Position numbers and translations under genes: made by a program. Of a stretch of DNA of 64,000 nt, positions 1,786-64,000 are shown piece after piece. Each line of letters begins with the position of its first letter. The first letter of the stretch is position 1. The notes beneath the pieces were generated by a model. It was not told the origin of the DNA and ran no database searches. It saw nothing but the letters and a program-made list of their open reading frames with translations. Source of the DNA: the human T2T-CHM13v2.0 reference genome, Homo sapiens. The stretch lies in NCBI GenBank assembly GCA_009914755.4, contig CP086569.2, positions 10,944,001-11,008,000 on the forward strand. Direction: 5' to 3'.

Positions 1786-1847
1786 TATTTTGATGGGATC
1801 TCACTCTGACAACGAGAACGGAATGCAGTGGCCCAATCTTAGCTCAC
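1786..1847 (-). mobile_element. Alu 3'-end fragment
   Basis: rc Alu 3'-end core read in sequence; +/-5 bp. Confidence 0.7.
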
Positions 1848-1910
1848 ATTTCATTAACCATTCCACTCCTCTTCACTCCATTCCATTCTACTCCATTCCA
1901 TTTCATTCCT

Positions 1911-1973
1911 TTATTTGGACGGAATCTCACTCTCTCACACAGACTGCAGTGTCGTGTCCCAATCTTAGCTCAC
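1911..1973 (-). mobile_element. Alu 3'-end fragment
   Basis: rc Alu 3'-end core read in sequence; +/-5 bp. Confidence 0.7.
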
Positions 1974-3786: not shown

Positions 3787-4038
3787 ATTACATTTCACCA
3801 TGCTATTCCATTGCATTCCATTGCACTCCATTCCATGGTATTCCGTTCCATTGCATTCCGTTGCATTCCATTACATTCCATACCATTCCATTGTATTCCA
3901 TTGCATTTCATTCCATTCCATTTCATTCCATTCCTTTCCACTCTTTTCCATTCCATTCCATTCCATTCAACTCCACTCCATTACACTCCTCTCCACTCCA
4001 CTCCAATCCATTCCATTCCACTCCCTTACATTCCATTC

Positions 4039-4105
4039 CTTTCTTTCGACAGAATCTCACTCCCTCACCCATGCTGGAGTGCAGTGGCACAATCTCATCT
4101 CACAT
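4039..4105 (-). mobile_element. Alu 3'-end fragment
   Basis: rc Alu 3'-end core read in sequence; +/-5 bp. Confidence 0.75.
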
Positions 4106-4448
4106 TTCATTTCACAGTTCTATTCCATTACATTCCGTTGCATTCCATTAATTGTATTGCATTCCATTCCATTTCATTCAATTCCATTCCACTACATTCC
4201 ATTCAACTCCAATACATTCCACTCCATTCCATTCCATTCCATTCCATTCCATTCCTTCCTATTCCTTTCCACTCTTGTCCACTCCGCTGCACTCCACTTG
4301 ACTCCGCTGCACTCCACTACTCTCCACTCCATTCCAATCCCCTCCATCCCATTGTATTCCACTTCATTCCCCTCCACTCCACTCTACTCCACTTCTGTCC
4401 ACTTGACTTCACTCCACTCCATTCCATTACACTCCATTGAATTCCATT

Positions 4449-4515
4449 CCTTTCTTTCACCAGGATCTCATTCTCTCACCCTGCTTGCAGTGCAGTGGAA
4501 CAATCTCAGATCGCA
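4449..4515 (-). mobile_element. Alu 3'-end fragment
   Basis: rc Alu 3'-end core read in sequence; +/-5 bp. Confidence 0.7.
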
Positions 4516-4651
4516 TTTCATTTCACCTTTCCATTCTATTCCATTCCATTCCACTTCATTCCATTCCATTCCACTCTGCTCCATTCCACTCCACTCCACT
4601 GCACTCCGTTCATTTCCATTCCAATCCGCTCCACTCCATTCCATTCCGTTC

Positions 4652-4718
4652 CTTTCTTTCGACAGGATCTCACTCTCTCACACAGGTTAAAGTGCAGTGG
4701 CAAAACTTAAGTTCATAT
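4652..4718 (-). mobile_element. Alu 3'-end fragment
   Basis: rc Alu 3'-end core read in sequence; +/-5 bp. Confidence 0.7.
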
Positions 4719-4847
4719 TTCATTTCACCATTCCATTCCATTCCACTCCACTCCACTCAATTCCCTTCCATTCCACTCCATTCCACTTCACTCCAGTCCA
4801 CTCCATTCAGTTACATTCCATTTCATCCCACTCCTATCCATTCCATT

Positions 4848-4913
4848 CCTTTCTTTCGACAGGATCTCATTCTGTCACCCAGCCTATAGAGCAGTGGCAC
4901 AATATCAGCTCAC
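4848..4913 (-). mobile_element. Alu 3'-end fragment
   Basis: rc Alu 3'-end core read in sequence; +/-5 bp. Confidence 0.75.
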
Positions 4914-5204
4914 ATTTAATTTCATCATTCCCTTACATTGCATTCCATTCAATTCCATACTATTCCATACCATTCCATTCCAATCTGCTGCATTTCATTC
5001 CATTCCATTCCACTTCACTCTACTCCACTACTCTACACTCCATCCCATTCCATCCCATTCAATTCCACTCCACTCCACTCTATTGCATTCCCTCTCATCC
5101 CATTCCAAGCCATTCCACTCAAATCCACACTACTCCACTCCACTCTACTCCACTCCATTCCATTCCATTCCATTCCATTGCATTCCATTCCATTCCATTC
5201 CATT

Positions 5205-5270
5205 ACTTTCTGTCGAGAAAATCTCACTCTGTCACACTGGCTGTAGTGCAGTGTTGCACTTTCAGCTCAC
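5205..5270 (-). mobile_element. Alu 3'-end fragment
   Basis: rc Alu 3'-end core read in sequence; paralog of 2526 and 56356; +/-5 bp. Confidence 0.7.
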
Positions 5271-5854
5271 ATTTCATTTCACCTTTCCTTTCTATTCCAT
5301 TCCACTCCACTCCACTCCACTCCACTCCATTCTATGCCATTGCATTCCACTGCATTCCACTCCACTTCACTGCACTCCACTCTACTCCATTCCATTTCAC
5401 TCCCTACCATTCCATTCCCCTCCACTCCACTCCACTCCAGTCAACTCCTCTCCACTCCCTTCCATTCCATTCCATTCCATTCCATTCCATTCCATTCCAT
5501 TCCATTCCACTCAACTGCACTGAATTCCACTCCACTCCACTCCCTTCCATTCCATTCCATTCCATTCCATTCATTCCATTCCACAACATTCCAGTCCATT
5601 CCATTCCATTCCACTCCATTCCATTCCATTCCATTCCACTCCATCCCATTCCATTCAACTCTTTTCCACACGACTCCACTCCACTCCAATCCATTCCACA
5701 ACACTCCACTCCAATCCACTCCATTCCATTCCTTTCCATTTGATCCCATTCCATCCCACTCTGTTCCACTCCACTCTACTCCATTCCATTCCATTCCATT
5801 CCATTCCATTCCATTCCATTCCATTCCATTCCATTCCACTCCATTCCATTCAAT

Positions 5855-7095: not shown

Positions 7096-7285
7096 TTCAT
7101 TTCAACATTCCATTGCATTCCATTACAATGCATTCCACTCCATTCCATTTCATTCCATTCCATTCCACTCCACTCCACTCCACTCTGCCTCATTCCATTC
7201 CATTCCATTTCACTCCATTCCACGCCAATCTACTCCACTCCCCTCCACTCCATTGTATTCCATTCCACTCCCTTCCATGCCATTC

Positions 7286-7350
7286 CTTTCTTTCAACAGG
7301 ATCTCACTCTGTCACCCAGGATGGAGTGCAGTGGCAAAACCTCAGCTCAC
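7286..7350 (-). mobile_element. Alu 3'-end fragment
   Basis: rc Alu 3'-end core read in sequence; +/-5 bp. Confidence 0.8.
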
Positions 7351-8058
7351 ATTTCGTTTCACCATTCCTTTCCATTCCATTTAATTCCATTCCATTACCC
7401 TCCACTCCATTCCAGTCCACTCCACTCTGCCCAATTACACTCCAGTCCACTCCACTCCAATCTAGTACAATCCACTCTATTCCACTCAATCCCTTTCCAT
7501 TCCATGGAATTCCAATCCACTCCACTCCACTCCTCTCCATTGCATTCCATCATATTCTATTCCACTCCATTGCAGTCCACTCCACTCCACTCCTCTCCAT
7601 TCCATTCCATTCCATTCCATTCCATTCCTTTCCATTCCATTTTGCTCCATTCTCTTACATTACATTCCATTTATTCCCAATACATTGCACTGCACTCCTC
7701 TCCACTCCACTCCATGTCATTCCATTCCATTACATTCCAGTCCATTCCACTCCATTCCACTACACTCCAATCCAATTTGTTCCATTACATCCCGTTTCAT
7801 TTCACTCCATTCCACTCCTCTCCACTCTACTCCATTCCACTCCTCTCCACGCTATTCCACTCGATTCCATTTCATTCTTTTCCATTCCATTCAATTCCAT
7901 TCCACTCCAATCCACTGCACTCCAATCCATTCCATTCCACTCCATCCCATTTAATTCCACTCCATTCCACTCCAGTCCACTCCATTCCGTGCCATTCTAT
8001 CCAATTCCGTTCTATTTTGTTCCATTCCATTCAATTCTAGTCCATTACTTTGAATTCT

Positions 8059-8122
8059 TTTCTTTTGAAATGATTTCACTCATTCACACAGGCTGGAGTG
8101 CAGTGGGAATATATGAGCTCAC
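8059..8122 (-). mobile_element. Alu 3'-end fragment (HOR module A variant)
   Basis: variant GAAATGATTTCACTCATTCACACAGGCTGGAGTGCAGTGGGAATATATGAGCTCAC; +/-5 bp. Confidence 0.7.
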
Positions 8123-8334
8123 ACTTCATTTCACCATTCCATTGCACTCCATTCCACTCCACTCCACTCCACCCCACTCCACTCCATTAAATCCCAATCC
8201 ATTCCATTCCACTCCATCCCATTTGATTCCACACCACTACACTCCACTACACTACACTCCCTGCCATTCCATCCCATTTCTCTCCATTCCATTCCATTCC
8301 ATTAGATTCCATTCCACTCCATTGCATTCCATTC

Positions 8335-8399
8335 CTTTATTTCGACAGTATCTCACTCTGTCACACAGGCAGGAGTGCAGTGGCACAATATCAGCTCAC
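8335..8399 (-). mobile_element. Alu 3'-end fragment (module C)
   Basis: rc Alu 3'-end core read in sequence; +/-5 bp. Confidence 0.75.
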
Positions 8400-8525
8400 A
8401 TTTCATTTCACCGTTTCATTTCACTCCATTCCACTCCATTCCACCACACCACAGCACCCTCCACTCCACTCCACTCCATTAAATCCCAATCCATTCCATT
8501 CCACTCCATTCCATTCCATTCTTTG

Positions 8526-8590
8526 TTTTCTTTCGACAGGATCTCACTCTGTCACGCAGGGTGGAGTGCAGTGGCACAATCTCAGCTGAC
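8526..8590 (-). mobile_element. Alu 3'-end fragment (module D)
   Basis: rc Alu 3'-end core read in sequence; +/-5 bp. Confidence 0.75.
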
Positions 8591-8701
8591 ATTTCATTTC
8601 AATATTCCATCTCATTCCATTCCATTTCACTCTACTCCACTCCACTCCACTCTATTTCATTCCGTTACATTCCACTCCACTCCTTTCCATAAGTTTCCTT
8701 T

Positions 8702-8762
8702 CTTTTGACAGGATCTCACTCTATCAAACAGGCTGGAGTGTAGTGGCACAATTTCACCTCAA
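8702..8762 (-). mobile_element. Alu 3'-end fragment (module E)
   Basis: rc Alu 3'-end core read in sequence; +/-5 bp. Confidence 0.7.
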
Positions 8763-9240
8763 ATTTCACTTCACCCTTCCGTTCCGTTGCATTCCATTCC
8801 ATTCTATTCCATTCCATTCAATTCCTTTCCATTCCATTCCATTATACTCCATTCCACTCATCTCCACTCCATTGCTTTCCATTCCACTCCACTTCACTCC
8901 ACTCCTTTCAACTCCACTACATTACATCCCATTCTGTCCTACTCCATTCCACTCCACTCCACTCCAATCTACTCAATTCCATTTCCTTACATCACATTCC
9001 ATTCCATTCAATTCCATTCCACTCCACTCCAATCCACTCAACTGAACTTTCTATTCCATTCCATTCAATTCCATTCTATTCCACTCCACTCAATCCAATT
9101 CACTCCATTCCATTCCATTCCATTTCATTCCACTCCACTCCACACCACTCCACTCCACTCCATTCCATGCCATTCCATCCAATTCCATTCTATTCCGTTC
9201 AATTCCAATCCATTCCTGTCCATTCCATTCATTTCGTTTC

Positions 9241-9300
9241 TTTTTAAATGATCTCCCTCAGTCACACAGGCTGGAGTTCGGTGGGAAAATCTGAGCTTCA
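9241..9300 (-). mobile_element. Alu 3'-end fragment (module A)
   Basis: rc Alu 3'-end core, A-variant; +/-5 bp. Confidence 0.65.
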
Positions 9301-9423
9301 TTTCATTTCACCATTCCATTGCACTCCATTCTACTCCATTCCACTCCACCCCACTCCACTCCATTCCATTCCATTCCATCCCAATCCATTACATTCCACT
9401 CCATTTCATTCCTTTCTTTTCTT

Positions 9424-9482
9424 TCATAAGGATATCAGTTTTTCACGCAGGGTGAAGTGGAGTGGCACAATCTCAGTTCACA
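9424..9482 (-). mobile_element. Alu 3'-end fragment (module B)
   Basis: rc Alu 3'-end core read in sequence; +/-5 bp. Confidence 0.7.
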
Positions 9483-9542
9483 TTTTATTTCAACTTTCCA
9501 CTCTGTAGCATTCCATTGCAGTCCGTTTCTTTCCATTCCTTT

Positions 9543-9603
9543 ATTTTACAGGATCTCACTCTGTCACTCCGGGTGGAGTGCAGTCGCATAATCTCAGCTC
9601 ACA
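9543..9603 (-). mobile_element. Alu 3'-end fragment (module B')
   Basis: rc Alu 3'-end core read in sequence; +/-5 bp. Confidence 0.75.
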
Positions 9604-9920
9604 TTACATTTCAGCATTGCATTCCATTCCATTCCACTCCATTCCATTCCATTCGTTTCCATTCAGTTCCGCTCTACTCCACTCCACTGCATTTCATTTC
9701 ATACCATTCCATTCCACTCCACTTCACTCTAATCCACTCAATTCCATTCCATCCCATGACATTCCTCTCCACTAAACTCCACTCCATTCCATTCCCCTCC
9801 ATCCCGTTTCATTCCACACAACTACACTCCACTACACTCCATTTCCTGCCATTCCACCCCATTTCATTCCACTCCAATCCATTCCATTTGATTCCATTCC
9901 ACTCCATTGCATTACATTCC

Positions 9921-9987
9921 TTTTTTTTTCCGACAGTATCTCACTCGGTCACACAGGCTGTTGTGCAGTGGCACAATCTCAGCTCAC
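9921..9987 (-). mobile_element. Alu 3'-end fragment (module C)
   Basis: rc Alu 3'-end core read in sequence; +/-5 bp. Confidence 0.75.
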
Positions 9988-10120
9988 AATTCATTTCACC
10001 ATTTCATTTCACTCCATACCACTCTACTACACTGCACCACAATCCACTCCACTCCACTCCACTCCTTCCACTCCATTTAATCCAAATCCATTCCATTCCA
10101 CTCCATTCCATTCCATTCCT

Positions 10121-10187
10121 TTGCTTTCTTTCAATAGGATCTCACTCTGTCACACAGGGTGGAGTGTAGTGGCATAATCTCAGCTCA
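10121..10187 (-). mobile_element. Alu 3'-end fragment (module D)
   Basis: rc Alu 3'-end core read in sequence; +/-5 bp. Confidence 0.75.
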
Positions 10188-10327
10188 CATTTCATTTCAA
10201 TATTCCATCCCATTCCATTCCATTCCACTGCACTCCACTCCAATCCACTCCACTCAATTCCATTCCATTTCATTCCATTCCGTTCTATCCATTCCATTCC
10301 ATACCACTCCATTCCATTCCTTTCCTT

Positions 10328-10390
10328 TCTTTTGACAGGATCTCACTCCATCAAACAGGCTGGAGTGTAGTGGCACAATCTCACCTCAAA
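10328..10390 (-). mobile_element. Alu 3'-end fragment (module E)
   Basis: rc Alu 3'-end core read in sequence; +/-5 bp. Confidence 0.7.
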
Positions 10391-10469
10391 TTTCACTCCA
10401 CCATTCCATTCCATTCCATTCCATTCCATTCCATTCCATTCCATTCCATTCCACTCCTTTCCATTCCTT

Positions 10470-10532
10470 TCCTTTCTTTTGACAGGATCTCACTCCATCA
10501 AACAGGCTGGAGTGTAGTGGCACAATCTCACC
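10470..10532 (-). mobile_element. Alu 3'-end fragment (module E, local duplicate)
   Basis: near-identical to 10328-10390; +/-5 bp. Confidence 0.7.
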
Positions 10533-11037
10533 TCAAATTTCACTCTAGCAGTCCATTCCATTCCATTCCATTCCACTCCATTTCATTCCATTCCATACTA
10601 TTCCATTCCATTCTACTCAACTTCAATCAAATCCACTGCATTGCACTCCACTTCACTCCAATCCTCTCCACTCCTCTACATTACTTCCCATTTTATCCCA
10701 CTCCATTCCACACCACTCCACTCCAATCTACTCAATTCCATTCCATTACATCACATTCCATTCCATTCCATTCCATTCCAATCCACTCCAATCCACTCAA
10801 CTGCAATCCTCTATATTGCATTCCATTCCCTTCCATTCCATTACATCACATTCCATTCCATTCTATTCCATTCCACTCCACTCCACTCCACTCCACTCCA
10901 CTCCAATTCACTCCATTCCATTCCATCCCCTTTCATTCCACTCCACTCCACTCCACTCCATTACATGTCATTCCATCCGATTACATTCTCTTCCATTCCA
11001 TTCCAATCCATTCCAGTCCATTTCATTCAATTCGTTT

Positions 11038-11098
11038 CTTTTGAAACGATCTTACTCAGTCACACATGGTGGAGTTCAGTGGGAATATCTGAGCTCAC
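11038..11098 (-). mobile_element. Alu 3'-end fragment (module A)
   Basis: rc Alu 3'-end core, A-variant; +/-5 bp. Confidence 0.65.
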
Positions 11099-11223
11099 AC
11101 TTCATTTCACCACTCCATTGCACTCCATTCCACTCCATTCCACTCCCCTCCACTCCACCCCACTCAACTCTATTCCACTCCATTCAATCCCAATCCATTC
11201 CATTCCTCTCCATTCAATTCCTT

Positions 11224-11290
11224 TCCTTTCTTTCGTCAGGATATCACTCTTTGACGCAGGGTGGAGTGCAGTGACACAATCTCAGTTCAC
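11224..11290 (-). mobile_element. Alu 3'-end fragment (module B)
   Basis: rc Alu 3'-end core read in sequence; +/-5 bp. Confidence 0.7.
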
Positions 11291-11348
11291 ATTTCCTTTT
11301 AACTTTCCACTCCATAGCATTCCATTGCAGTCCATTTCTTTCCGTTCC

Positions 11349-11411
11349 TTTCTTTCAGAAGATCTCACTCTGTCACTCAGGTTGGAGTGCAGTCGCATAA
11401 TCTCAGCTCAC
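11349..11411 (-). mobile_element. Alu 3'-end fragment (module B')
   Basis: rc Alu 3'-end core read in sequence; +/-5 bp. Confidence 0.75.
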
Positions 11412-11809
11412 ATTACATTTCAGGATTGTGTTCCATTCCATTCCACTTTATTCCACTCCATTCGATAACATTCCATTCCACTCTACTCCACTCCACTGCA
11501 CTCCATTTCATACCATTCCATTCCTCTCCACTCCACTCTAATCCACTCAATTCGATTCCATCCCATTCCATTCCACTCCACTCCACTCCACTACATTCCA
11601 TTCCACTCCATCCAATTTCATTCCACCCCACTACACTTCACTACACTCCATTCCCTGCCATTCCATCCCATCCCATTCCATTCCATTCCATTCCATTCCA
11701 TTCCATTCCATTCCACTCCATGCCATTTGATTCCATTCCACTCCATTGCATTCCATTCCATTACACTCCATGCCATTTGATTCCATTCCACTCCATTGCA
11801 TTCCATTCC

Positions 11810-11870
11810 TTTTCTTCAACAGCATCTCACTTACACAGGCTGGAGTGCAGTGACACAATCTCAGCTCACA
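11810..11870 (-). mobile_element. Alu 3'-end fragment (module C)
   Basis: rc Alu 3'-end core read in sequence; +/-5 bp. Confidence 0.7.
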
Positions 11871-12017
11871 TTTCATTTATCCATTTCATTTCACTCCATA
11901 CCACTCCACTCAACTACACCACACTCCACTCCACTCCACTCCACTCCACTCCAGTCCACTCCACTCCTCTCCATTAAATCCCAATCCATTGCATCCTACT
12001 CCATTCCATTCCATTCC

Positions 12018-12085
12018 TTTGCTTTCTTTCGATAGGATCTCACTTTGTCACACAGGGTGGAGTGCAGTGGCACAATCTCAGCTCA
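12018..12085 (-). mobile_element. Alu 3'-end fragment (module D)
   Basis: rc Alu 3'-end core read in sequence; +/-5 bp. Confidence 0.75.
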
Positions 12086-12219
12086 CATTTCATTTAAATA
12101 TTCCATCCCATTCCATTCCACTCCACTCCACTCAATTCCATTCCACTCCATTCCATTCTATTCCATTCCATTCTATTCCAGACTATTCCATTCCATTCGA
12201 CTCCTTTCCATTCCTTTCC

Positions 12220-12285
12220 TTTCTTTCGACAGGATCTCTTTCTATCAAACAGGCTGGAGTGTAGTGGCACTATCTCAGCTCAAAT
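12220..12285 (-). mobile_element. Alu 3'-end fragment (module E)
   Basis: rc Alu 3'-end core read in sequence; +/-5 bp. Confidence 0.7.
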
Positions 12286-12591
12286 TTCACTTCACCATTC
12301 AATTCCATTCCTTTCTGTTCCATTCCATTCCACACCACTCCACTCCACTCCACTCCACTCCATTGCATTCCATTCCTCTTCACTCCACTCCACTCTTCTC
12401 CACTACTCTACATTACATCTCTCTCTATCCCAGTCCATTCTACTCCACCTCACTCCACTCCAATCTACTCAATTCCATTACATTACATCACTTTCCATTC
12501 CATTCCACTCCACTCCAATCCACTCAATTCCACTCCTCTATATTACATTCCTTTTCATTCCATTCCAGTACACCGTATTACATTACACTTA

Positions 12592-12655
12592 TTTCTTTGG
12601 ACAGGATCTCACTCTGTCAAACAGGGTAGAGTGCAGGGGCACAATCTCAGCTCAC
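12592..12655 (-). mobile_element. Alu 3'-end fragment (module F)
   Basis: rc Alu 3'-end core; paralog of 63525; +/-5 bp. Confidence 0.75.
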
Positions 12656-12989
12656 ATTACATTTCACCATTCCATTCTATTTCTTTCCATTCCATTCCAA
12701 TCCGTTCCATTCCATTCATTTCCGTTACACTTTACTCCACTCCATTCCACTCCACTCCACTACATTACACTTTACTCCACTCCAGTCCACTCCACTTCAT
12801 TACACTTCATCCCATTCCATTCCACTCCATTCCACTCTACTGCACTCCACTCCACTCCATTCCATTCCATTCCATCCCAGTCCATTCCACTCCATTCTAC
12901 ACCACTCCACTCCACTCCATTCCATTGCATTCCAACCGAATCTATTCCAGCCCACTCCATTCCATTCCACTCCATTCCATTCCATTCCC

Positions 12990-13052
12990 TGCTTTCGACA
13001 GGATCTCTCTGTGTGACACAACCTGGAATGCAGTAGCACTATCTCATCTCAC
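12990..13052 (-). mobile_element. Alu 3'-end fragment (module G)
   Basis: rc Alu 3'-end core; paralog of 39322; +/-5 bp. Confidence 0.7.
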
Positions 13053-13474
13053 ATTTCATTTGACCATTCCATTCCACTACATTCCACTACACTTCAGTCC
13101 ACTCCACTCCACTCTAATCCACGCCATTCCACTCCATTCAATTCCATTTCAGTCCATTCCACTCCATTCGACACCACTCCAATCCACTCAACTCCACTTC
13201 ATTCCACTTCAGTCCACTCCACTCCAGTCCACTCCACTTCATTAGCGTCCATGCAATTCCATTCCACTTCACTGCCCTTCACTCCACTACACGCCACTCC
13301 ATTCCATTCCATTCCATCCCAGTTTATTGCACTCCATTCCACACCACCCACTCCACTCCACTCCATTCCATTCCAATCCATCCCATTCCATTCCATCCCA
13401 TTCCATTCCATTCCATTCCATTCCATCCCTGTGCATCCCCGTCTATTCCATTCCATTTCGTTCCATTCCATTCC

Positions 13475-13540
13475 TTTCTTCTGACAGGATCTCACTCTCT
13501 CACCTTGGCTGTAGTGAAGTGGCACAATCTCAGCTCACAT
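13475..13540 (-). mobile_element. Alu 3'-end fragment
   Basis: rc Alu 3'-end core read in sequence; +/-5 bp. Confidence 0.7.
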
Positions 13541-14059
13541 TACATTTCACCATTGCATTCCATTCCATTTCACTCCTTTCCATTCCATTCCTTTCCACTC
13601 CATTCCATTCCATTCCATTCCATTCCATTCCATTCCATTCCATTCCATTGCATTCCATTCCATTCCATTCCATTCCATTCCATTCTATTTCACTCCACTC
13701 CACTGAACTCCACTCCACTCCACTGCACTCCAATCCATTCCATTCCATTCCATTCCATTTCACTCGACTCCATTCCAATCCACTCCACTCCATTACACTC
13801 CATTCCATTCCATCCCATTCATCCCATTCAATTTCCCTCTTCTCCATTCCACTCCACTCCACTCCAATTCACTCCATTCCATTGCATGCCATTCCATTCC
13901 ACTCCTCTCCATTCCACTCCACTCCGCACTCCTCCTTTCCACTCCATCTCATTCCATTCCACTCCATTCCACTCCACTCAACTGCACTTCATTCCACTGT
14001 ACTGCATTCCATTTCATTCCACTCCCTTCCATTTTTTTCCACTCCCTTACATTCCATTC

Positions 14060-14125
14060 CTTTCTTTTGACAGGATCTCATTCTCTCACACAGGCTGGAG
14101 TGTAGCGGCACAATCTCGGCTCACA
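14060..14125 (-). mobile_element. Alu 3'-end fragment
   Basis: rc Alu 3'-end core read in sequence; +/-5 bp. Confidence 0.75.
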
Positions 14126-14294
14126 TTTCATTTCGACATTCTATTCCATTGCAATCCATTGCACTCCGTTCCATTCTATTGCATTCCATTGCATTCCATT
14201 CCATTCCATTCCTCTCCACTCCATTCTACTCCACTCCAGTCCACTCTGCTCCAGTACACTCCACTCCATTCCATTCATCTCCATTCCATTACTT

Positions 14295-14689: not shown

Positions 14690-14755
14690 CCTTTCTTTCA
14701 ACAGGATCTTATTGTGTCTGCCAGGTTCGAGTGCAGTGGCACAATCTCAGCTCAC
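14690..14755 (-). mobile_element. Alu 3'-end fragment
   Basis: rc Alu 3'-end core read in sequence; +/-5 bp. Confidence 0.7.
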
Positions 14756-15054
14756 ATTTCATTGCACTATACTATTCCGTGCCATTCCACTCCACTCCAT
14801 TCCTTTAAATTCCATTCCATTCTAGTCCCCTCCACTCTACTCCACTTCACTCACTCTACTCCACACCACTCTACTCCACTCCATTCCATCCCATTCCATT
14901 CCACACCACTCTACTCCACTCCATTCCATCCCATTCCATTCCACTCCACTTCTTTCCATTCCATTCCATTCCACTCCACTCCATTACACTCCTGTCCGCT
15001 CCACTTCAGTCCATTCCATTAAATTGCATTCCATTCCACTCCTTTCCTTTCCAT

Positions 15055-15120
15055 TCCTTTCTCTTGAAAAGATCTCACTCTGTCACCCAGTCTGAAGTGC
15101 AGTGGCACAGTCTTAACTCA
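15055..15120 (-). mobile_element. Alu 3'-end fragment
   Basis: rc Alu 3'-end core read in sequence; +/-5 bp. Confidence 0.75.
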
Positions 15121-15480
15121 CATTTCATTTCACCATTCCATTGCATTCCATTCAATTGCATTCCTTTCCATTCTGTTCCATTACATTCCACTCCACTCCC
15201 CTCCACCCTGCTGCTTTCCATTCAATTCCATTCCTCTCCATTCCACTCCACACTACTCCATTCCTCTCCACTCCATCCCATTCTATCCAATTCCATTCCA
15301 TTCCATTCCAGTCAACTGCACTCCATTCCACTCCATTGCATCCCATTGCATTCCACTCCATTTCACTGCACTCCACTCCACTCCATTTCCTTCCACTCGA
15401 TTTCGTTCCATTAGACTCCACTGCACTCCCGTCCACTACTTTCCACTCCATTCCATTCCACTCCATTCCATTTCATTATT

Positions 15481-15545
15481 TTTCTTCGACAGGATCTCAC
15501 TCTGTCCCTCAGGCTGAAGTGTAGTGCCACAATCTCAGCTCAAAT
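15481..15545 (-). mobile_element. Alu 3'-end fragment
   Basis: rc Alu 3'-end core read in sequence; +/-5 bp. Confidence 0.75.
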
Positions 15546-15847
15546 TTCATTTCGCCATTCCATTGCATTCCATTCCATTAAATTTAATTCCAATCCTCTC
15601 CACTTCACTCCACTCCACTCCACTCCATCCCAATTCATTCTCATACATTCCATCCAATTCCACTCCATTGCACTCCATGCCTTTTCAACTATATTCCGTT
15701 TCATCCCTTCTCATTCCACTCCATTCCTCTCCTCTCCACTTTACTCCACGTCACTATTCTCCACTCCATTCCTCTCCATTCCATTCCATTCCATTCCATT
15801 CCATTCCATTCCATTCCATTCCATTCCACTCCATTTCATTCCATTGC

Positions 15848-15912
15848 TTTCTTTCAACAACATCATCCTCTTTCACACAGGCTGGAATGCAGCAGTACAA
15901 TCTCAGCTAACA
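15848..15912 (-). mobile_element. Alu 3'-end fragment
   Basis: rc Alu 3'-end core read in sequence; +/-5 bp. Confidence 0.65.
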
Positions 15913-16202
15913 TTTTATTTCACCATTACATTTGCTTCCATTCCATTCTATTCAATTCCACTCCACTGCACTTCATTAACTCCACTCCATTTCGTACAGT
16001 TCCATTCCATTCCATTCCACTCCATTCCACTTCACTCCCCAACACTCCACTCCATTCCAATCCATCCCATACCATTCCACTCCATTCCGCGCCACTCCCT
16101 TCCACTCCACTGAACTCCATTCCATTCCATTCCATTCCATTCCATTCCATTCCATTCCATTCCATTTCACTCCATTCCACACCATTCTATTCCATTCCAT
16201 TC

Positions 16203-16267
16203 CTTTCTTTCGACAGTATGTGTCTCTGACACAAAGGCTGATGTGTAGTGGCCCAATCATAGCTCAC
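16203..16267 (-). mobile_element. Alu 3'-end fragment
   Basis: rc Alu 3'-end core partly degenerate; +/-5 bp. Confidence 0.6.
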
Positions 16268-16560
16268 ATTTCATTTCACCATTCCATTCCCTTCCATTCC
16301 ATTGCATTCCATTCCATTCAATTCCATTCTTTTCCACTCCACTCCACTCCACTCCACTCCATGCCATGACATTCCATTACATTCCAGTCCAATCCAATCT
16401 ATTCCACTCCACTCCACAACACTGTATTCCATTACATCCCTTCCCATTCCACTCCATTCCACTTGTCTCCACTCTAATCCACGCCACTCAACTCCTCTGC
16501 ACTCTATCCCATTCCATGCCATTCCACTCCATTCCACTCCATTCCATTCCCTTCCTTTTT

Positions 16561-16620
16561 GTAGACAGGATCGGACTCTTTGACTCAGGCTACAGTGCAG
16601 TGCCACACACTCAGCTCACA
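16561..16620 (-). mobile_element. Alu 3'-end fragment
   Basis: rc Alu 3'-end core partly degenerate; +/-5 bp. Confidence 0.6.
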
Positions 16621-16904
16621 TTTCATTTCACCATTTCATTGCATTCCATTCCATTCCTTTCCATTTACTTCAAATCAATTACACTTCACTCCACTCCACT
16701 CCACGCCATTTCATTCCATTACATTCCAGTACATTCTACTCCATTACACTCCACTCCACGAGGCTATATTCCATTACATCTCATACCGTTCCACTCCATT
16801 CCACTCCTATCCAATCTACTCCATTCCACACCACTTCCTCTCCACGCTATTCCATTCCATTCCATTCCATTCCACTCTGTTCCTCTCCATTCCCTTCCCT
16901 TCCT

Positions 16905-16970
16905 TTTCATAGACAGGATCTCACTCTTTCACTCAGGCTAGAATGCAGTGACACACTCTCAGCTCATATT
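16905..16970 (-). mobile_element. Alu 3'-end fragment
   Basis: rc Alu 3'-end core partly degenerate; +/-5 bp. Confidence 0.6.
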
Positions 16971-17261
16971 GCGTTTCACCATTCCATTGAATTCCATTCC
17001 ATTCCATTCCATTTAATTCAAATCCATTCCACTCCACTCCCCACCATTCCATTCCATTACATTCCAGTGCATTCCACTCCAATCCACTCCACTCCACTAT
17101 GCTATATTCCATTTCATCCCGTCCCATTCCACTCCTCTCCACTCTACACCACTGCACTACACTCCTATCCACTCCATTCCATTCCATTCCATTCCATTCC
17201 ATTCCATTCCATTCCACTCCACTCCATTCCATTCCATTCCACTCCATTCCATTCCATTCCT

Positions 17262-17326
17262 TCCTTTCGACAACATCTCACTCTGTCATGCAGACTGGAG
17301 TGCAGTGGCACAATCTCAGCTCACGT
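17262..17326 (-). mobile_element. Alu 3'-end fragment
   Basis: rc Alu 3'-end core read in sequence; +/-5 bp. Confidence 0.75.
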
Positions 17327-17651
17327 TTCATTTCACCATTCCATTCCCTTACATTCCATTCCATTCCACTCAACTGCACTGCACTCCACTACATTCTATT
17401 CCATTCCATTCCATTCCATTCCATTCCATTCCATTCCATTCCATTCCATTCCATTCCATTCCATTCCACTGCATCCCATTCCATTCCACTCTATTCCAAA
17501 CCACTCCACTCCACTCCAATTCATTCCACACCACTCCACTCCACTCCATTGCATTCCATTCCAACCAATTCCATTCCACTCCGTTACATTCCACTCCAGT
17601 CCACTCGATTCAATTCCATCCCATAGCATTTCTCTCCATTCCTTTCCATTC

Positions 17652-17715
17652 TTTCTTTCAACAAGATCTTACTCTGTCACAGGCTGGAGTGCAGTGGCCC
17701 AATCTTAGCTCACAT
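17652..17715 (-). mobile_element. Alu 3'-end fragment
   Basis: rc Alu 3'-end core read in sequence; +/-5 bp. Confidence 0.7.
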
Positions 17716-17971
17716 TTTATTTCACCATTCCATTCCATTCGATTCCACTCAATTCCACTACACTCTACTCAAGTCCACTCCACTCCATTCCATTCCATTC
17801 CACTGCCCTCCACTCCACTCCTCTCTTCTCCGTTCCATCCGATTCCATTCCCCTCCTTTCCAACACACTTCACTCCACTTCTCTCCATTCCGTGCCTTTC
17901 CATTCCATCACGTTCCACTCCACTCCACTCCACTCCACTCCACTCCACTCCATTCCAATACACACCATTAC

Positions 17972-18045
17972 ATTACATTCCTTTCTTTCGACAGGATCTC
18001 ACTCTGTCAAACAGGCTGGAATACAGTGGCACAATCTCAGCTCAC
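17972..18045 (-). mobile_element. Alu 3'-end fragment
   Basis: rc Alu 3'-end core read in sequence; +/-5 bp. Confidence 0.75.
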
Positions 18046-18574
18046 ATTTTATTTAACCATTGCATTCCATTCCATTCCCATTTGTTCCGTTCCATTCCGT
18101 TCCACTGAACTACACTGCACTCCATTCCACTCCACTCCAGTCCATTCCGCTCGACTTCACTCCGTTCCATTCCATTCCATTCCACTCCATTTCACACAAC
18201 TCCACTCCAGTAAAATCCTCTTCACTCTGTTACATTTTATCCCATTCCATTCCACTCCATTCGATTCCATTCCATTCCGTTCCATTCCTTTCCATTCTGT
18301 TCCATTCCATTCCACTCCATTTCATTCCACTCCATTCCACTCTATTCCTTTCCTTTCCATTCCACTCTGTTCCACTGCATTCCACTCCACTCCATTCCAC
18401 TCCACTCAATTCGCTTCCTCCCCTCTATTCCAATCCATTCATTTACTCTGCATTACATGCCATTCCACTCCATTCCAGTCCACTTCATTACACTCCCTCC
18501 ATTCCACTCCACTGCACTCCATTTTATTCCACTATACTCCATTCCATTCAATTCTAATACAAATCATTCCATTC

Positions 18575-18640: not shown

Positions 18641-19999
18641 TTTCATTTCACTATTCCATTCCATTCCATTTCATTCCGTTGCATTCCATTCCATTCCAAT
18701 GCATTCCATTCCATTCCCTTCCATCAATTCCGTTCCCTTCCATTCCATTCCACCGCACTCTGATCATCTCCACTCAACTCCATTCCACTCCACTCCACTC
18801 CACTTTGTTCTGTTCAGATCCATTCCATTCCATTTCATTCCATTCCAGGCCATTCCTCTCCATTCAACTCCACTCCATTGCATTCCATTCCACGCCACTC
18901 CACTCCCTTCCCCTCCACTCCATTCCACTCCATTCCATTCCAATTCACTCCTCTTCATTTTATTCCAATGCACTCGATTCCATTCCACTCCAGTCCACTC
19001 CACTCCATTCCATTTCGTTCCATACCACTGAACTCCAATCCACTCCACTCAAATCCACTCCACTCCACTCCTCTCCACTCCATTGTATTCCGCTCCGTTT
19101 CGTTCCATTCTTTTCCATTTCAGTCCACTTCATTTCACTCCATTCCATTCCATTCCACTCCATTTCATTAAATTCCTTTCAAATCGATTCCACTCCATTC
19201 CACTGAATTCCATTCCTCTCTATTCCACTTCATTCCATTCCACTCGATTCCATTCCACTCCATTCCACCCTACACCACTCCATTCCACCTCAGTCCATTC
19301 CACTCAAGTGCACTAAACTCCCCTCCACTCCACTCCATTCCATTCAATTCTATTCCATTCTATTCCACTGCACTATGATCCACTCCACTGTACTCCTCTC
19401 CACACTTCTCTACACCTTTCTGTTCCTTTCCTTTCTGTTCTGATCCTTTCCATTCCATTCCACTCCATTCTATTACACTCCACTCCACTCCACTTCATTC
19501 CATTTCACTCCATTCCACTCCATTCCACTTCAATCCATTCCAATCCAATCCACTACCATCCACTCCACTCCACTCCATTCTATTACACTCCATTCATTTC
19601 CTTTCCACTCAATTCCATTCCATTCCATTCCATTACACTCCACTCCATTCCACTCCACTGCATTCCACTGTATTCCACTCCACTCTCCTCCACTCAATTC
19701 CATTCAATTAAACTCCATTCCATTGTATTCCATTACACTTCATTCAACTTTATTCCACGCCACTCCAGGCCACTACACTCCTTTCCAATCCTCTCCATTC
19801 CGTTGCACTCCATTCCATTCCAGTCCACTCCATTCCATTCCATTCCATTCCATTCCATTCAACTCCATTCCATTCCGTTCCATTCCATTCTGTTCCATTC
19901 CATTCCATTCCATTCCATTCAACTCCATTCCATTCCATTCCATTCCATTCCGTTCCATTCCATTCCATTCCATTCCATTCCATTCCATTCCATTCCATT

Positions 20000-58230: not shown

Positions 58231-58269
58231 CATTCCATACCATTTCATTCCATTCCTTTCCGTTCCGTG

Positions 58270-61540: not shown

Positions 61541-61819
61541 CCTTCACCATTCCATTGCATTCCATTCCATTCTGTTCCATTCCAAATCACTACATTCCAT
61601 TTAGTTCCTATCCATTCCACTGCACTCCTCTCCACTCCACTGCACGCCATTCCATTCCATTCCATTCCAGTCCAGTCCACTCCACTACGCCTTATTCCAT
61701 TACATCCCGATTCATTCCACTCCATTCCACTCCTCTCCACTCTACTCCACTCCACTCCTCTCCACTCTATTCCGTTCTGTTTCATTCCATTCCATTCCAT
61801 TCCTTTGCATTCCATTCCT

Positions 61820-62074: not shown

Positions 62075-62140
62075 CTTTCTTTCAAAGTGTTCTCACTTAG
62101 TCACACATGGTGGAGTTCAGTGGGAAAATCTGAGCTCACA
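62075..62140 (-). mobile_element. Alu 3'-end fragment (module A)
   Basis: A-variant as at 9241/11038; +/-5 bp. Confidence 0.65.
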
Positions 62141-62261
62141 TTTCATTTCACCATTCCATTGCACTCCATTCCACTCCACTCCACTCCACCCCACTCCACT
62201 GCATTCCACTCCATTCCATCCCAATCCATTCCTTTCCACTCCATTCCATTCCTTTCCTTTC

Positions 62262-62325
62262 CTTCATCAGGATATCACTGTTTCACACAGGGTGGAGTGC
62301 AGTGGCACAATCTTAGTTCACATTT
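62262..62325 (-). mobile_element. Alu 3'-end fragment (module B)
   Basis: paralog of 9424/11224; +/-5 bp. Confidence 0.7.
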
Positions 62326-62382
62326 CATTTCAACTTTCCACTCCATAGCATTTCATTGCAATCCGTTTCTTTCCATTTTTTT

Positions 62383-62445
62383 TCGTTTGACAGTTTCTCA
62401 CTCTGTCACTCCGGGTGGAGTGCAGTCGCATAATCTCAGCTCACA
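62383..62445 (-). mobile_element. Alu 3'-end fragment (module B')
   Basis: paralog of 9543/11349; +/-5 bp. Confidence 0.75.
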
Positions 62446-62761
62446 TTACATTTGAACTTTGCATTACATTCCATGCCACTCCATTTCATTTCATTCGATT
62501 CCATTCCATTCCACTCTACTCAATTCCACTCCACTCCACTACATTCCATTTCATACCATTCCATTCCACTCCATTCCACTCTAATCCACTCAATTCCATT
62601 CCATCCCATTACATTCCACTCCACTCCACTCCATTCCATCCCACTCCATCCCATTTCATTCCACACCACTACACTCCACACCACTCCATTTCCTGCCATA
62701 CCATCCCATTTCATTCCATTCCATTTGATTCCTTTCCACTCCTTTGCATTCCATTCCTTTA

Positions 62762-62825
62762 TTTCGACAGTATCTCAATCTGTCACAAAGTCTGGAGTGC
62801 AGTGGCACAATCTCAGCTCACATTT
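62762..62825 (-). mobile_element. Alu 3'-end fragment (module C)
   Basis: paralog of 9921/11810; +/-5 bp. Confidence 0.75.
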
Positions 62826-62957
62826 CATTTCACCATTTCATTTCATTCCATACCACTCCACTCCACTACACCACACTCCACTCCAGTCCACTTCACTCCA
62901 CTCCACTCCATTAAATCCCAATGCATTCCATTCCTGTCTATTCCTATCCATTCCTCT

Positions 62958-63025
62958 GCTTTCTTTTGATAGGATCTCACTCTGTCACTCAGGGTGGAGT
63001 ACAGTGGCACAATCTCAGCTCATAT
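62958..63025 (-). mobile_element. Alu 3'-end fragment (module D)
   Basis: paralog of 10121/12018; +/-5 bp. Confidence 0.75.
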
Positions 63026-63149
63026 TTTATTTCAATATTCCATACCATTCCATTCCATTCCATTCCACTCTACTCCACTCCACTCCACTCAATTCCATTC
63101 TATTCAATTACATGCCACTCCATTCCACTCCTTTCCATTCCTTTCTTTT

Positions 63150-63215
63150 CTGTCGACAGGTTCTCACTCTAACAAACAGGCTAGAGTGTAGTGGCACAAT
63201 CTCCGTTCAAATTTG
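63150..63215 (-). mobile_element. Alu 3'-end fragment (module E)
   Basis: paralog of 10328/12220; +/-5 bp. Confidence 0.65.
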
Positions 63216-63524
63216 ACTTCACCATTCCATTCCATTCCATTTCATTCCATTCCATTCCATTCCATTCTACTCCCTTCCACTCAACTCCAACCCATTGCAT
63301 TCCATTCCACTCCACTCCACTCCTCTCCACTGCTCTACATTACATCCCATTCTATCCAACTCCATTCCCCTCCACTCCACTCCAATCTACTGAATTCCAT
63401 TCCATTACATCACATTCCATTCCATTGCATTCCATTCCACTCCACTCCAATCCACTCAAATCCATTCCACTATATTCCGTTCCTTTCCTTTCAATTCCAA
63501 TACACTGTATTACCTTAAACTCCT

Positions 63525-63590
63525 TTCTTTAGACAGGATCTCACTCTGTCACACAGGGTAGAGTGCAGTGGCACAATGTTAGCTCACATT
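63525..63590 (-). mobile_element. Alu 3'-end fragment (module F)
   Basis: paralog of 12592; +/-5 bp. Confidence 0.75.
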
Positions 63591-64000
63591 ACGTTTCACA
63601 ATTCCATTCCATTTCTCTCCATTCCATTCCATTCCTTTCCCTTCCGTTCCTTTAAGTTCCACTCCACTCCACTCCATTCCACTCCACTCCACTCCATTAC
63701 AGTACACTCCACTCCACTCCAGTAGACTCAATTTCATTACACTCCATCCCATTCCATTCCACTCCATTCCACCCCACTACAATCCACTCCACTCCTCTCC
63801 AATCTACTCCACTCCACTCCACTCCAGTCCACTCCATTGCATTCCATCCCATCCCAGTCCATTCCACTCCATTCTACATCAATCCACTCCATTCCATTCC
63901 ATTCCAACTGATTCCATTCCATCCCGGTCAATTCCATTCCATTCCATTCCATTCCATTCCATTCCATTCCATTCCATTCCATTCCATTCCATTCCATTGC

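What the first reader, a model, noticed from the sequence alone, without database searches (positions are those of the whole stretch)
8059..13540. ~1.8-kb higher-order repeat with ordered Alu-fragment modules A-B-B'-C-D-E, seen again ~51 kb away at 62075-64000
Each module is a distinguishable variant of the Alu fragment plus its flanking pentamers. The units are 8059-9240 (truncated, no B), 9241-11037 (A-to-A 1797 bp), 11038 onwards, and 62075 onwards. The A-to-B spacing is 180-186 bp in all three full copies. The E-to-F spacing is 370 bp at both 12220/12592 and 63150/63525. Recurrence across ~51 kb implies either a long-range HOR domain that the intervening 13.5-62 kb interrupts, or two related arrays brought together.
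Basis: seen in the sequence. Interest (0 to 1): 0.5.

Follow-up and report, generated by a model that had tools for sequence, protein, structure and literature searches.

The report
Old 1.8-kb repeat in pentamer satellite
Inside a primate CATTC-type satellite peppered with copies of one Alu tail fragment, a 1.8-kb stretch was copied three times side by side and has one more old relative 51 kb away; this is real but is ordinary satellite-DNA turnover, not a homogeneous higher-order repeat array.

Summary
The window is a (CATTC/CACTC)n satellite carrying 134 same-strand copies of one ~65-bp Alu 3'-end fragment, 127 of them starting within Alu consensus positions 220-229. At 8059-12590 there are three tandem units with ordered modules. 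U1 and U2 read A-B-B'-C-D-E. U0 is the same unit with a 408-bp internal deletion that removes B and B'. A fourth, solitary copy lies at 62075-63523. All 25 class-assigned modules have their nearest neighbour, out of 133, in the predicted class.

The units are old. Global identity is 77-79% including gaps, against 67.8±1.2% for 99 Alu-anchored control chunks (z 7.5-9.4). Substitution-only identity over the A-E core is about 89.5% for all three full-copy pairs. The predicted >90% identity is not met, and the 1.8-kb period occurs only at about 6-15 kb. Elsewhere the local periods are 0.57, 0.87, 1.86 and 2.1-2.3 kb.

The distant copy shares both flanks with the tandem triplet. The two flank offsets differ by 3.0 kb, which is about U0+U1. 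So the two loci are paralogues and the left one gained two extra units.

Best reading: a low-copy nested tandem duplication made by unequal exchange in an HSat3-like Alu-composite satellite. It is a known kind of structure, of low interest, with no sign of function.

The parts
8059..9240 (.). Unit U0. Modules are A (8059-8122), C (8337-8399) and D (8525-8590), then E (8700-8761), then a pentamer-only tail. It is a whole unit with a 408-bp internal deletion between 8187 and 8188, relative to U1 9365-9772, which removes B and B'.
   Evidence: Module classes. Long-gap alignment to U1, U2 and U3 gives blocks of 82-96% identity.
9241..11037 (.). Unit U1 (1797 bp). Modules are A (9249-9297), B (9423-9481) and B' (9547-9603), then C (9922-9988), D (10131-10188), E (10326-10389) and a duplicate E (10473-10535), then a pentamer tail of about 500 bp.
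   Evidence: TRF reports a 147-bp period, 2.5 copies, 92% matches at 10246-10613.
11038..12590 (.). Unit U2, the last tandem unit. Modules are A (11035-11098), B (11231-11290) and B' (11353-11412), then C (11828-11869), D (12024-12086) and E (12220-12283), then post-E pentamers.
12591..12988 (.). Right flank of the tandem array. It contains module F (12591-12657) and following pentamers, and is paralogous to 63524-64000. It is not part of the repeating unit, because F is absent after E in U0 and U1.
   Evidence: F modules 12655 and 63587 are reciprocal nearest neighbours at distance 0.11. Chunks 12401-12789 to 63328-63721 and 63601-63960 to 12669-12988 are best hits.
62075..63523 (.). Unit U3, the solitary distant copy. 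Modules are A (62085-62139), B (62268-62321) and B' (62379-62445), then C (62759-62821), D (62964-63022) and E (63146-63209).
   Evidence: The preceding module at 61882 is not an E, and homology to the unit tail covers only about 61925-62074.
63524..64000 (.). Right flank of U3. It contains module F (63524-63593) and pentamers, and is cut by the end of the window.
7617..7903 (.). Left flank of the tandem triplet, paralogous to the left flank of U3.
   Evidence: It is the reciprocal best local hit of 61547-61818, with score 137 against 100-106 for the next hits. The offset of 53,930 exceeds the right-flank offset of 50,930 by 3,000 bp, which is about U0+U1 (2,979 bp).
61547..61818 (.). Left flank of U3, paralogous to 7617-7903.
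12812..13597 (.). It is paralogous to 39144-39934 at 83-85% identity and is not related to the 1.8-kb unit.
   Evidence: (13052 and 39384 at distance 0.06).

Best explanation
This is non-coding satellite DNA. It is an HSat3-like pentameric (CATTC/CACTC)n array whose ancestral building block already contained one ~65-bp Alu 3'-end fragment, from about Alu position 224 to the start of the poly(A) tail, in antisense orientation. That composite block of roughly 350 bp was amplified.

Within the array, a 1.8-kb stretch carrying six already differentiated Alu modules (A-B-B'-C-D-E, with their pentamer spacers) was duplicated in tandem. The likely mechanism is unequal sister-chromatid or homologue exchange between misaligned pentamer or Alu-module tracts. 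This gave three side-by-side units at 8059-12590.

Later events were smaller:
- A 408-bp deletion removed B and B' from the first unit.
- A 147-bp duplication of E arose in the second unit.
- Many small indels accumulated.

A paralogous segment at 61.5-64 kb carries the same flanks and a single unit. The two loci therefore come from a larger, old segmental duplication within the satellite, and the tandem amplification is private to the left locus.

All copies are about equally diverged, at roughly 10.5% substitutions. The duplication events were therefore close in time and ancient, and the units have not been homogenised since.

Shown: the anatomy, the module orthology, the identities, the shared flanks and the single origin of the Alu fragment. 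Inferred: the unequal-exchange mechanism, the order of events and the absence of function.
For: - Satellite nature: TRF finds a period-5 CATTC array across 7106-14064. The pentamer spectrum is dominated by CATTC and CACTC phases. GC skew is uniformly strong across the window.
- Single origin of the Alu fragment: 134 hits, all on the minus strand, with 127 starting at Alu positions 220-229. The module consensus differs from the Alu 3' end almost only at CpG sites.
- The same start point holds in 666 of 696 fragments in 107 unrelated metagenome contigs, where the median spacing is 347 bp.
- Module orthology is 25 of 25.
- Unit identity is z 7.5-9.4 above Alu-anchored controls, and the A-E core shows equal substitution-only identity of 0.893-0.895 for all three pairs.
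- The 1.8-kb interval peak occurs only at 6-15 kb.
- U0 carries an internal deletion, and E is duplicated in U1.
- The flanks are shared: F and 7617-7903 with 61547-61818 as reciprocal best hits. The offset difference of 3.0 kb is about U0+U1.
- A further collinear paralogy links 4.0-5.5 kb with 55.1-56.7 kb.
- Literature: kb-scale nested tandem repeats in HSat2/3, and TE fragments inside HSat3 units (10.1101/2021.07.12.452052). HSat3 blocks intermingled with Alu fragments on the Y and acrocentric chromosomes (10.1101/2022.12.01.518724).
Against: - The species and chromosomal origin could not be established with these tools.
- None of the 14 published HSat2/3 subfamily marker 24-mers is present exactly, so assignment to classical HSat3 is by pentamer content only.
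- The left-flank paralogy is modest (score 137 against 100-106).
- The pure-pentamer 150 bp immediately upstream of A is not distinctive.
- Only 12 of 47 gaps between units are multiples of 5 bp, so pentamer slippage is not the only indel process, or the alignment is noisy.
- Equal pairwise distances leave the order of events unresolved. Gene conversion could have blurred them.
Confidence: 0.8

Rival explanations
1. A genuine higher-order repeat domain. On this view a long homogenised array of 1.8-kb units once spanned, or still spans, the region, and the 13.5-62 kb stretch interrupts it.
For: The same ordered modules recur in three tandem units and again 51 kb away. A 1.8-kb interval peak is present at 6-15 kb.
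Against: - There are only about 2.6 tandem copies plus one solitary copy. The module upstream of U3 is not an E, and U2 and U3 both exit into the same flank F.
- Identity is 77-86%, not >90%.
- Module lengths range from 121 to 562 bp.
- The intervening DNA is the same satellite with other local periods and a second Alu-fragment variant.
- No A or B modules occur in 310 kb of related contigs.
Confidence: 0.06
2. Chance resemblance. On this view independent Alu insertions, or the generic similarity of pentamer arrays, give apparent units.
For: Background identity between any two chunks of the array is already about 68% including gaps, and about 80% counting substitutions only.
Against: - The units exceed every one of 99 Alu-anchored controls (maximum 70.6%) by z 7.5-9.4.
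- Nearest-neighbour class assignment is correct in 25 of 25 modules.
- All Alu fragments share one start point and one strand.
- The B' 38-mer is exact in all three copies, with zero matches expected by chance.
Confidence: 0.01
3. Assembly artefact. On this view the triplet or the distant copy results from mis-joined or duplicated reads in a hard-to-assemble satellite.
For: Satellite arrays are prone to misassembly. No read data are available here.
Against: The copies differ by 10-23% and carry distinct indels: a 408-bp deletion, a 147-bp duplication and 10-80-bp indels. Artefactual duplicates would be near-identical.
Confidence: 0.03
4. The distant copy is not part of a large collinear duplication. 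On this view a small segment of about 2.5 kb was transposed, or copied by gene conversion, into another part of the array.
For: Only about 2.45 kb (61547-64000) is demonstrably paralogous to the left locus before the window ends. Between 5.5-7.6 kb and 56.7-61.5 kb no convincing homology is found.
Against: A second paralogous block (4.0-5.5 kb with 55.1-56.7 kb) lies in the same order and orientation upstream in both loci. Both loci sit in the same 'GC-type' Alu-variant domains.
Confidence: 0.1

Closest known systems
Nested tandem repeats (NTRs) of human satellites 2 and 3, for example DYZ1/HSat3A6 (~3.6 kb) and the 1.77-kb HSat2A2 unit (Altemose 2014, PMC4022460; Altemose 2021, 10.1101/2021.07.12.452052; Rhie 2023, 10.1101/2022.12.01.518724)
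   Same: A kb-scale repeat unit built on a diverged (CATTC)n background. The sub-blocks vary in length, so it is not a monomer-based HOR. The presumed origin is unequal exchange.
   Different: Here there are only about 2.6 tandem copies, 10-23% diverged, in one small patch. The named NTR arrays span hundreds of kb to Mb, and DYZ1 units are mostly >98% identical. None of the published subfamily marker 24-mers is present.
HSat3 blocks intermingled with Alu(Y) fragments on the Y chromosome and the acrocentric short arms (Rhie et al. 2023, 10.1101/2022.12.01.518724)
   Same: A pentameric satellite with many Alu fragments, and no large-scale homogenisation of the Alu fragments. This is the best literature match to the window as a whole.
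   Different: Membership could not be tested, because no reference genome is available in these tools. The paper reports no local homogenisation. Here local low-copy duplications, including the 1.8-kb unit, give clear module orthology.
D15Z1, the 1.8-kb KpnI satellite III repeat of chromosome 15 (Higgins et al. 1985, cited in PMC4022460; subfamily HSat3A5)
   Same: The same nominal unit length of 1.8 kb, on a pentameric satellite III background.
   Different: There is no KpnI site anywhere in the window. The HSat3A5 marker 24-mer is absent even with 2 mismatches. The shared length is a coincidence.
HSat1B / DYZ2, a composite satellite of an Alu fragment plus AT-rich sequence with a ~2.5-kb unit
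   Same: An Alu fragment is a fixed component of a satellite repeat unit and was amplified with it.
   Different: The partner sequence is different (AT-rich rather than CATTC pentamers), and so is the Alu portion. DYZ2 units are highly homogenised.
Alpha-satellite higher-order repeats
   Same: The logic is hierarchical. Differentiated sub-blocks in fixed order form a larger unit, and orthologous sub-blocks in different units are more alike than neighbouring sub-blocks within a unit.
   Different: Alpha-satellite monomers have a uniform length of 171 bp, and HOR copies are 95-100% identical across hundreds to thousands of copies. Neither holds here.

Membership tests
HSat3-type pentameric satellite | Derived from a (CATTC)n simple repeat. 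| tested here: met
   TRF reports period 5 with consensus CATTC over 7106-14064. The five phases of CATTC are the five commonest pentamers, followed by the phases of CACTC.
HSat3-type pentameric satellite | Carries marker k-mers of one of the 14 HSat2/3 subfamilies of Altemose 2014. | tested here: not met
   There are 0 exact matches for all 14 published 'most common subfamily-specific' 24-mers. Only generic near-matches appear at 2 mismatches, for A2, A4 and B5. Only one marker per subfamily was available, so the subfamily remains unassigned.
Higher-order repeat (alpha-satellite sense) | The unit is made of a discrete number of monomers of similar length. | tested here: not met
   Module-to-module spacings within a unit are 121, 147, 181-192, 201-217, 385-458 and 562 bp.
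Higher-order repeat (alpha-satellite sense) | Many tandem copies with high (>90-95%) identity between units. | tested here: not met
   There are two full units and one deleted unit in tandem. Identity is 77-80% globally, 79-86% over the core, and about 89.5% counting substitutions only.
Higher-order repeat (alpha-satellite sense) | Sub-blocks at the same position in different units are more alike than different sub-blocks within one unit. | tested here: met
   Nearest-neighbour assignment is correct in 25 of 25 modules.
Nested tandem repeat (Altemose et al.) | A kb-scale tandem periodicity nested in a short-period satellite, with sub-blocks that are not uniform monomers. | tested here: met
   The 1.8-kb peak appears in the k-mer interval spectrum for 6-15 kb. 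Diagonals at offsets of 1.75-1.89 kb are seen. Nested sub-repeats of 121, 147 and 191-201 bp are present. The periodicity is local and low-copy.
D15Z1 1.8-kb KpnI repeat (HSat3A5) | One KpnI site per 1.8-kb unit, and HSat3A5 marker sequence. | tested here: not met
   GGTACC has 0 matches in the window. The HSat3A5 24-mer has 0 matches at up to 2 mismatches.
Alu-derived composite satellite | The Alu fragments descend from one ancestral fragment amplified with the satellite, rather than from independent insertions. | tested here: met
   There are 134 of 134 on one strand, and 127 of 134 begin at Alu positions 220-229. In unrelated contigs 666 of 696 do so. The Alu consensus used was recalled from memory. 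The shared start point does not depend on its exact sequence.
HSat3-Alu arrays of the Y chromosome and acrocentric short arms (Rhie 2023) | Maps to those arrays in a T2T assembly. | not testable with these tools
   No primate reference genome is searchable here. Metagenome contigs of the same family carry no chromosomal assignment.

The most novel reading that the evidence does not exclude
The 1.8-kb unit may be one layer of a multi-level architecture not yet described for this Alu-composite pentameric satellite. The proposed levels are:
- pentamers;
- Alu-plus-pentamer blocks of about 350 bp;
- local kb-scale units (0.57, 0.87, 1.8, 1.86 and 2.1-2.3 kb);
- a super-repeat of tens of kb, in which domains of two Alu-fragment variants alternate and recur with collinear content, at an offset of about 51 kb between the two 'GC-type' domains.

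If this super-repeat continued outside the window, it would be a very long-period nested repeat in a satellite reported as showing no local homogenisation.
Probability: 0.15. Interest if true: 0.35.

Novelty: new member of a known kind. Interest (0 to 1): 0.15.

Why it matters
It matters little beyond annotation. The result shows that this Alu-fragment/pentamer satellite evolves by patchy, low-copy local duplications and larger segmental copies, not by array-wide homogenisation. Module variants could serve as positional markers for assembly validation, read mapping or copy-number typing in an otherwise featureless satellite. The shared start point of the Alu fragment, seen both in the window and in unrelated contigs, supports a single founding event for the whole family.

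Tried and rejected
- blastn self-comparison of the satellite timed out. The reverse-strand part of a fuzzy-regex scan also timed out. Both were replaced by rare-k-mer diagonals, nhmmer and Biopython alignments.
- Subfamily assignment with the published HSat2/3 marker 24-mers gave no exact hit.
- The D15Z1 idea, prompted by the shared 1.8-kb length, was rejected: there is no KpnI site and no HSat3A5 marker.
- The exact 38-mer of module B' was searched in metagenome contigs and gave 0 hits.
- The generic junction 34-mer was searched in bacterial and archaeal genome contigs and gave 0 hits.
- The 107 metagenome contigs found with the generic junction are not collinear with the window. The best diagonal has at most 34 shared 24-mers. 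They contain no A, B or B' modules: the best mean distance is 0.16-0.18, against 0.12-0.14 within classes. They therefore gave family-level evidence only.
- The literature on 'HSAT5' gave no sequence description that could be tested.
- An Rfam scan found nothing.
- MAFFT on the four units mis-aligned U0's A module with B'. This was corrected with a long-gap pairwise alignment.
- The phylogenetic order of U1, U2 and U3 could not be resolved, because the pairwise distances are equal.

Full report
**What the window is**

The whole 64-kb window is one strand-uniform satellite.
- GC content is 43-46% and GC skew is -0.65 to -0.82 throughout.
- The commonest pentamers are the five phases of CATTC, followed by the five phases of CACTC.
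- TRF calls a period-5 CATTC array across 7106-14064.

Embedded in the satellite are 134 matches to the 3' end of Alu.
- The search was nhmmer against an AluY consensus that I supplied from memory.
- All 134 matches are on the minus strand, and 127 of them begin at Alu consensus positions 220-229.
- The consensus of the 134 modules is TTTCTTTCGACAGGATCTCACTCTGTCACCCAGGCTGGAGTGCAGTGGCACAATCTCAGCTCAC, followed by ATTTCATTTCACCATTCC.
- It differs from the Alu 3' end almost only by CpG-to-CpA changes.

The fragments therefore descend from one ancestral ~65-bp Alu tail that was amplified together with pentamers. They are not independent insertions.

The same junction occurs outside the window.
- It is found in 107 metagenome contigs totalling 310 kb, presumably host contamination.
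- There, 666 of 696 Alu fragments share the start point.
- Orientation is uniform in 105 of 107 contigs, and the median spacing is 347 bp.
- This matches the regular 348-422-bp spacing at 14.7-18 kb in the window.

There are no Rfam matches.

**Checking the observation**

I extracted 125 bp around each of the 134 fragments, aligned them, and computed all pairwise distances. The median distance is 0.24.

| Class | Breakpoint coordinates |
|---|---|
| A | 8122, 9300, 11098, 62139 |
| B | 9481, 11290, 62321 |
| B' | 9602, 11411, 62444 |
| C | 8399, 9987, 11869, 62821 |
| D | 8590, 10188, 12086, 63023 |
| E | 8762, 10389, 10536, 12283, 63210 |
| F | 12655, 63587 |

All 25 modules have their nearest neighbour, out of 133, in their own class, at distances of 0.04-0.15. 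The B' 38-mer TGGAGTGCAGTCGCATAATCTCAGCTCACATTACATTT is exact in all three copies, with zero matches expected by chance.

Rare-k-mer diagonals show offsets of 1.75-1.89 kb within 8-12.7 kb, and offsets of 50.9-54.4 kb to 62-63.6 kb. An NTRprism-like interval spectrum peaks at 1.8 kb for 6-15 kb.

Identities, including gaps:

| Comparison | Identity | Source |
|---|---|---|
| U1-U2 | 76.9-77.0% | |
| U1-U3 | 78.1-79.1% | |
| U2-U3 | 80.4% | |
| Random 1.8-kb chunks | 66.8-71.4% | |
| 99 control chunks that also start at an Alu fragment | 67.8±1.2%, maximum 70.6% | |

Against the Alu-anchored controls, identity z is 7.5 and 9.4, and alignment-score z is 9.3 and 10.6.

Over the A-to-E core, identity is 79-86% including gaps. 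Substitution-only identity is 0.893-0.895 for all three pairs.

Details of the observation:
- A-to-A is 1797-1798 bp. This is correct.
- E-to-F is 371-372 bp and 377-378 bp. This is correct.
- A-to-B is 181, 192 and 182 bp. It is slightly outside the stated 180-186 in U2, which has a 10-bp insertion.

**Anatomy in more detail**

- U0 is a complete unit with a single 408-bp internal deletion relative to U1 9365-9772, which removes B and B'. It is not end-truncated. Its aligned blocks are 82-96% identical to U1, U2 and U3.
- U1 carries a younger 147-bp duplication of E. The two E copies are at distance 0.04, and TRF reports 92% matches.
- Inside each unit there are older sub-repeats: B and B' at a 121-bp period, and C, D and E at a 191-201-bp period, with 74-78% matches. 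The structure is nested.
- After E, U0 and U1 run through a pentamer tail of about 500 bp into the next A.
- U2 and U3 both run from E into module F and remain alignable to each other as far as the end of the window.
- Upstream of U3 the nearest module (61882) is not an E. Homology to the unit tail covers only about 150 bp. U3 is therefore a solitary copy.
- Further upstream, 61547-61818 and 7617-7903 are reciprocal best local hits in the whole window, with score 137 against 100-106 for the runners-up.
- The left-flank offset is 53,930 and the right-flank offset is 50,930. They differ by 3,000 bp, which is close to U0+U1 at 2,979 bp.

The simplest reading is that 7.6-13.0 kb and 61.5-64.0 kb are paralogous segments, and that the left one holds three units where the right one holds one.

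**Context**

The 1.8-kb repeat is one of many local events. A best-hit map of 400-bp chunks and the module neighbour table show the following.

| Regions | Type | Identity or offset |
|---|---|---|
| 1-2331 and 19645-22141 | Dispersed duplication, the youngest in the window | Mostly 96-99%; 80-89% in the edge and indel-containing chunks |
| 2458-2800 and 5139-5488 | Duplication | 90% |
| 26.0-27.2 kb and 27.9-29.1 kb | Tandem | 1.86-kb offset |
| 27-34 kb and 43.6-51 kb | Dispersed, collinear | Offsets of 15.7-17.9 kb |
| 30.8-32.1 kb | Tandem, 0.57-kb unit | 87-91% |
| 51.25-53.6 kb and 53.56-55.7 kb | Tandem | 2.1-2.3-kb offset |
| 56.8-58.5 kb | Tandem, 0.87-kb unit | |
| 12.8-14.1 kb and 39.1-41.8 kb | Dispersed duplication | |
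| 4.0-5.5 kb and 55.1-56.7 kb | Dispersed duplication | Offset 51.12-51.18 kb |

The last block lies upstream of the 1.8-kb units in both loci, in the same order and orientation. This suggests an old duplication of at least 9 kb that was later remodelled differently in the two copies.

Two variants of the Alu fragment define alternating domains:
- The 'GC' type (CAGGCTGG...AATCTCAGC) occupies 2.5-18, 39.3-42 and 51.5-64 kb.
- The 'AT' type (CAGACTGG...AATCTTAGC) occupies 0-2.3, 19.6-39.1 and 42.9-51 kb.

Both loci of the finding sit in GC-type domains. The stretch between them is a different sub-domain of the same satellite. It does not interrupt a HOR array.

**Mechanism**

- Nothing suggests a coding or structured-RNA function. 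The G-poor pentameric sequence has no Rfam hit.
- The pattern is the signature of unequal exchange and segmental duplication in satellite DNA: tandem copies with shared flanks at a paralogous single-copy locus, indels in pentamer tracts, and nested sub-repeats.
- This mechanism is inferred from established knowledge, not shown here.
- Substitution divergence is about 10.5% among U1, U2 and U3, and it is equal for all pairs. The events were therefore ancient and close together in time, and no homogenisation followed.

**Comparison with what is known**

- Altemose et al. describe kb-scale 'nested tandem repeats' in HSat2/3. They distinguish them from HORs because the sub-blocks are not uniform monomers. 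They also note that HSat3 units often include fragments of ancient transposable elements (10.1101/2021.07.12.452052).
- Rhie et al. describe HSat3 blocks intermingled with Alu fragments on the Y and acrocentric chromosomes, without local homogenisation (10.1101/2022.12.01.518724). This is the closest description of the window.
- I could not test membership of those arrays, because no primate reference is available in these tools.
- None of the 14 published subfamily marker 24-mers is present (markers from PMC4022460).
- The classical 1.8-kb KpnI repeat D15Z1 is excluded: there is no KpnI site and no HSat3A5 marker.
- The 1.8-kb module classes A, B and B' were not found in the 310 kb of related contigs.

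**Verdict**

The label 'higher-order repeat' overstates it. This is a local, low-copy, old nested tandem duplication with one paralogue, inside a known kind of Alu-containing pentameric satellite. I rate it as a new member of a known kind, of low interest.

Noticed in passing
window 1-2331 and 19645-22141: This is the youngest duplication in the window. About 2.3-2.5 kb is mostly 96-99% identical at offsets of 19.64-19.85 kb, falling to 80-89% in the edge and indel-containing chunks. The four Alu modules are at distances of 0.02-0.04. It is much more recent than the 1.8-kb units.
   Followed up: partly
whole window; domain boundaries near 2.4, 18-19.6, 39.2, 42-42.9 and 51-51.5 kb: Two variants of the Alu fragment define alternating domains. 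The 'GC' type (CAGGCTGG..AATCTCAGC) occupies 2.5-18, 39.3-42 and 51.5-64 kb. The 'AT' type (CAGACTGG..AATCTTAGC) occupies 0-2.3, 19.6-39.1 and 42.9-51 kb. AT-type domains have much sparser Alu fragments, with gaps of up to 2.8 kb.
   Followed up: partly
window 51254-55701, and 4001-5500: A second multi-module tandem repeat is present. It has two copies of 2.1-2.3 kb with six or seven Alu modules each (for example 51565 with 53860, 51886 with 54171, and 53528 with 55629), at 80-88% identity. A partial third relative lies at 4.0-5.5 kb.
   Followed up: partly
window 30804-32135; 56761-58486; 34371-35972; 26001-29743: Further local tandem repeats have other periods: 0.57 kb (87-91% identity), 0.86-0.87 kb (81-92%), 0.74-0.83 kb, and 1.77-1.87 kb (78-83%). 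No single kb-scale period characterises the window.
   Followed up: partly
window 27204-34000 and 43600-50930: A long collinear old paralogy of 78-86% identity links these regions. Chunk best-hit offsets lie between 15.7 and 17.9 kb, mostly rising from about 15.8 to about 16.9 kb along the block. It lies within the AT-type domains.
   Followed up: no
window 14700-18050: There is a run of ten Alu modules at a regular spacing of 332-422 bp. This probably shows the basic Alu-plus-pentamer block of about 350 bp. It matches the median spacing of 347 bp in related metagenome contigs.
   Followed up: partly
window 58290-58361 and 59182-59251: Two Alu cores lie directly head to tail (…CTCAGCTCAG|GCTGGAGTGCA…). 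This is an internal partial duplication of the fragment, present in both copies of the local ~0.89-kb repeat.
   Followed up: no
loci L001-L107 (metagenome contigs): A total of 107 metagenome contigs (1-10 kb) carry the same Alu/pentamer junction. They presumably come from primate host DNA in the samples. None is collinear with the window, so the family is much larger than this window.
   Followed up: partly
window 12812-14152 and 39144-42007: The DNA just right of the tandem triplet is paralogous to the small GC-type island at 39.3-42 kb. Modules 13052 and 39384 are at distance 0.06, and block identity is 83-85%. This is another dispersed copy event next to the finding.
   Followed up: partly
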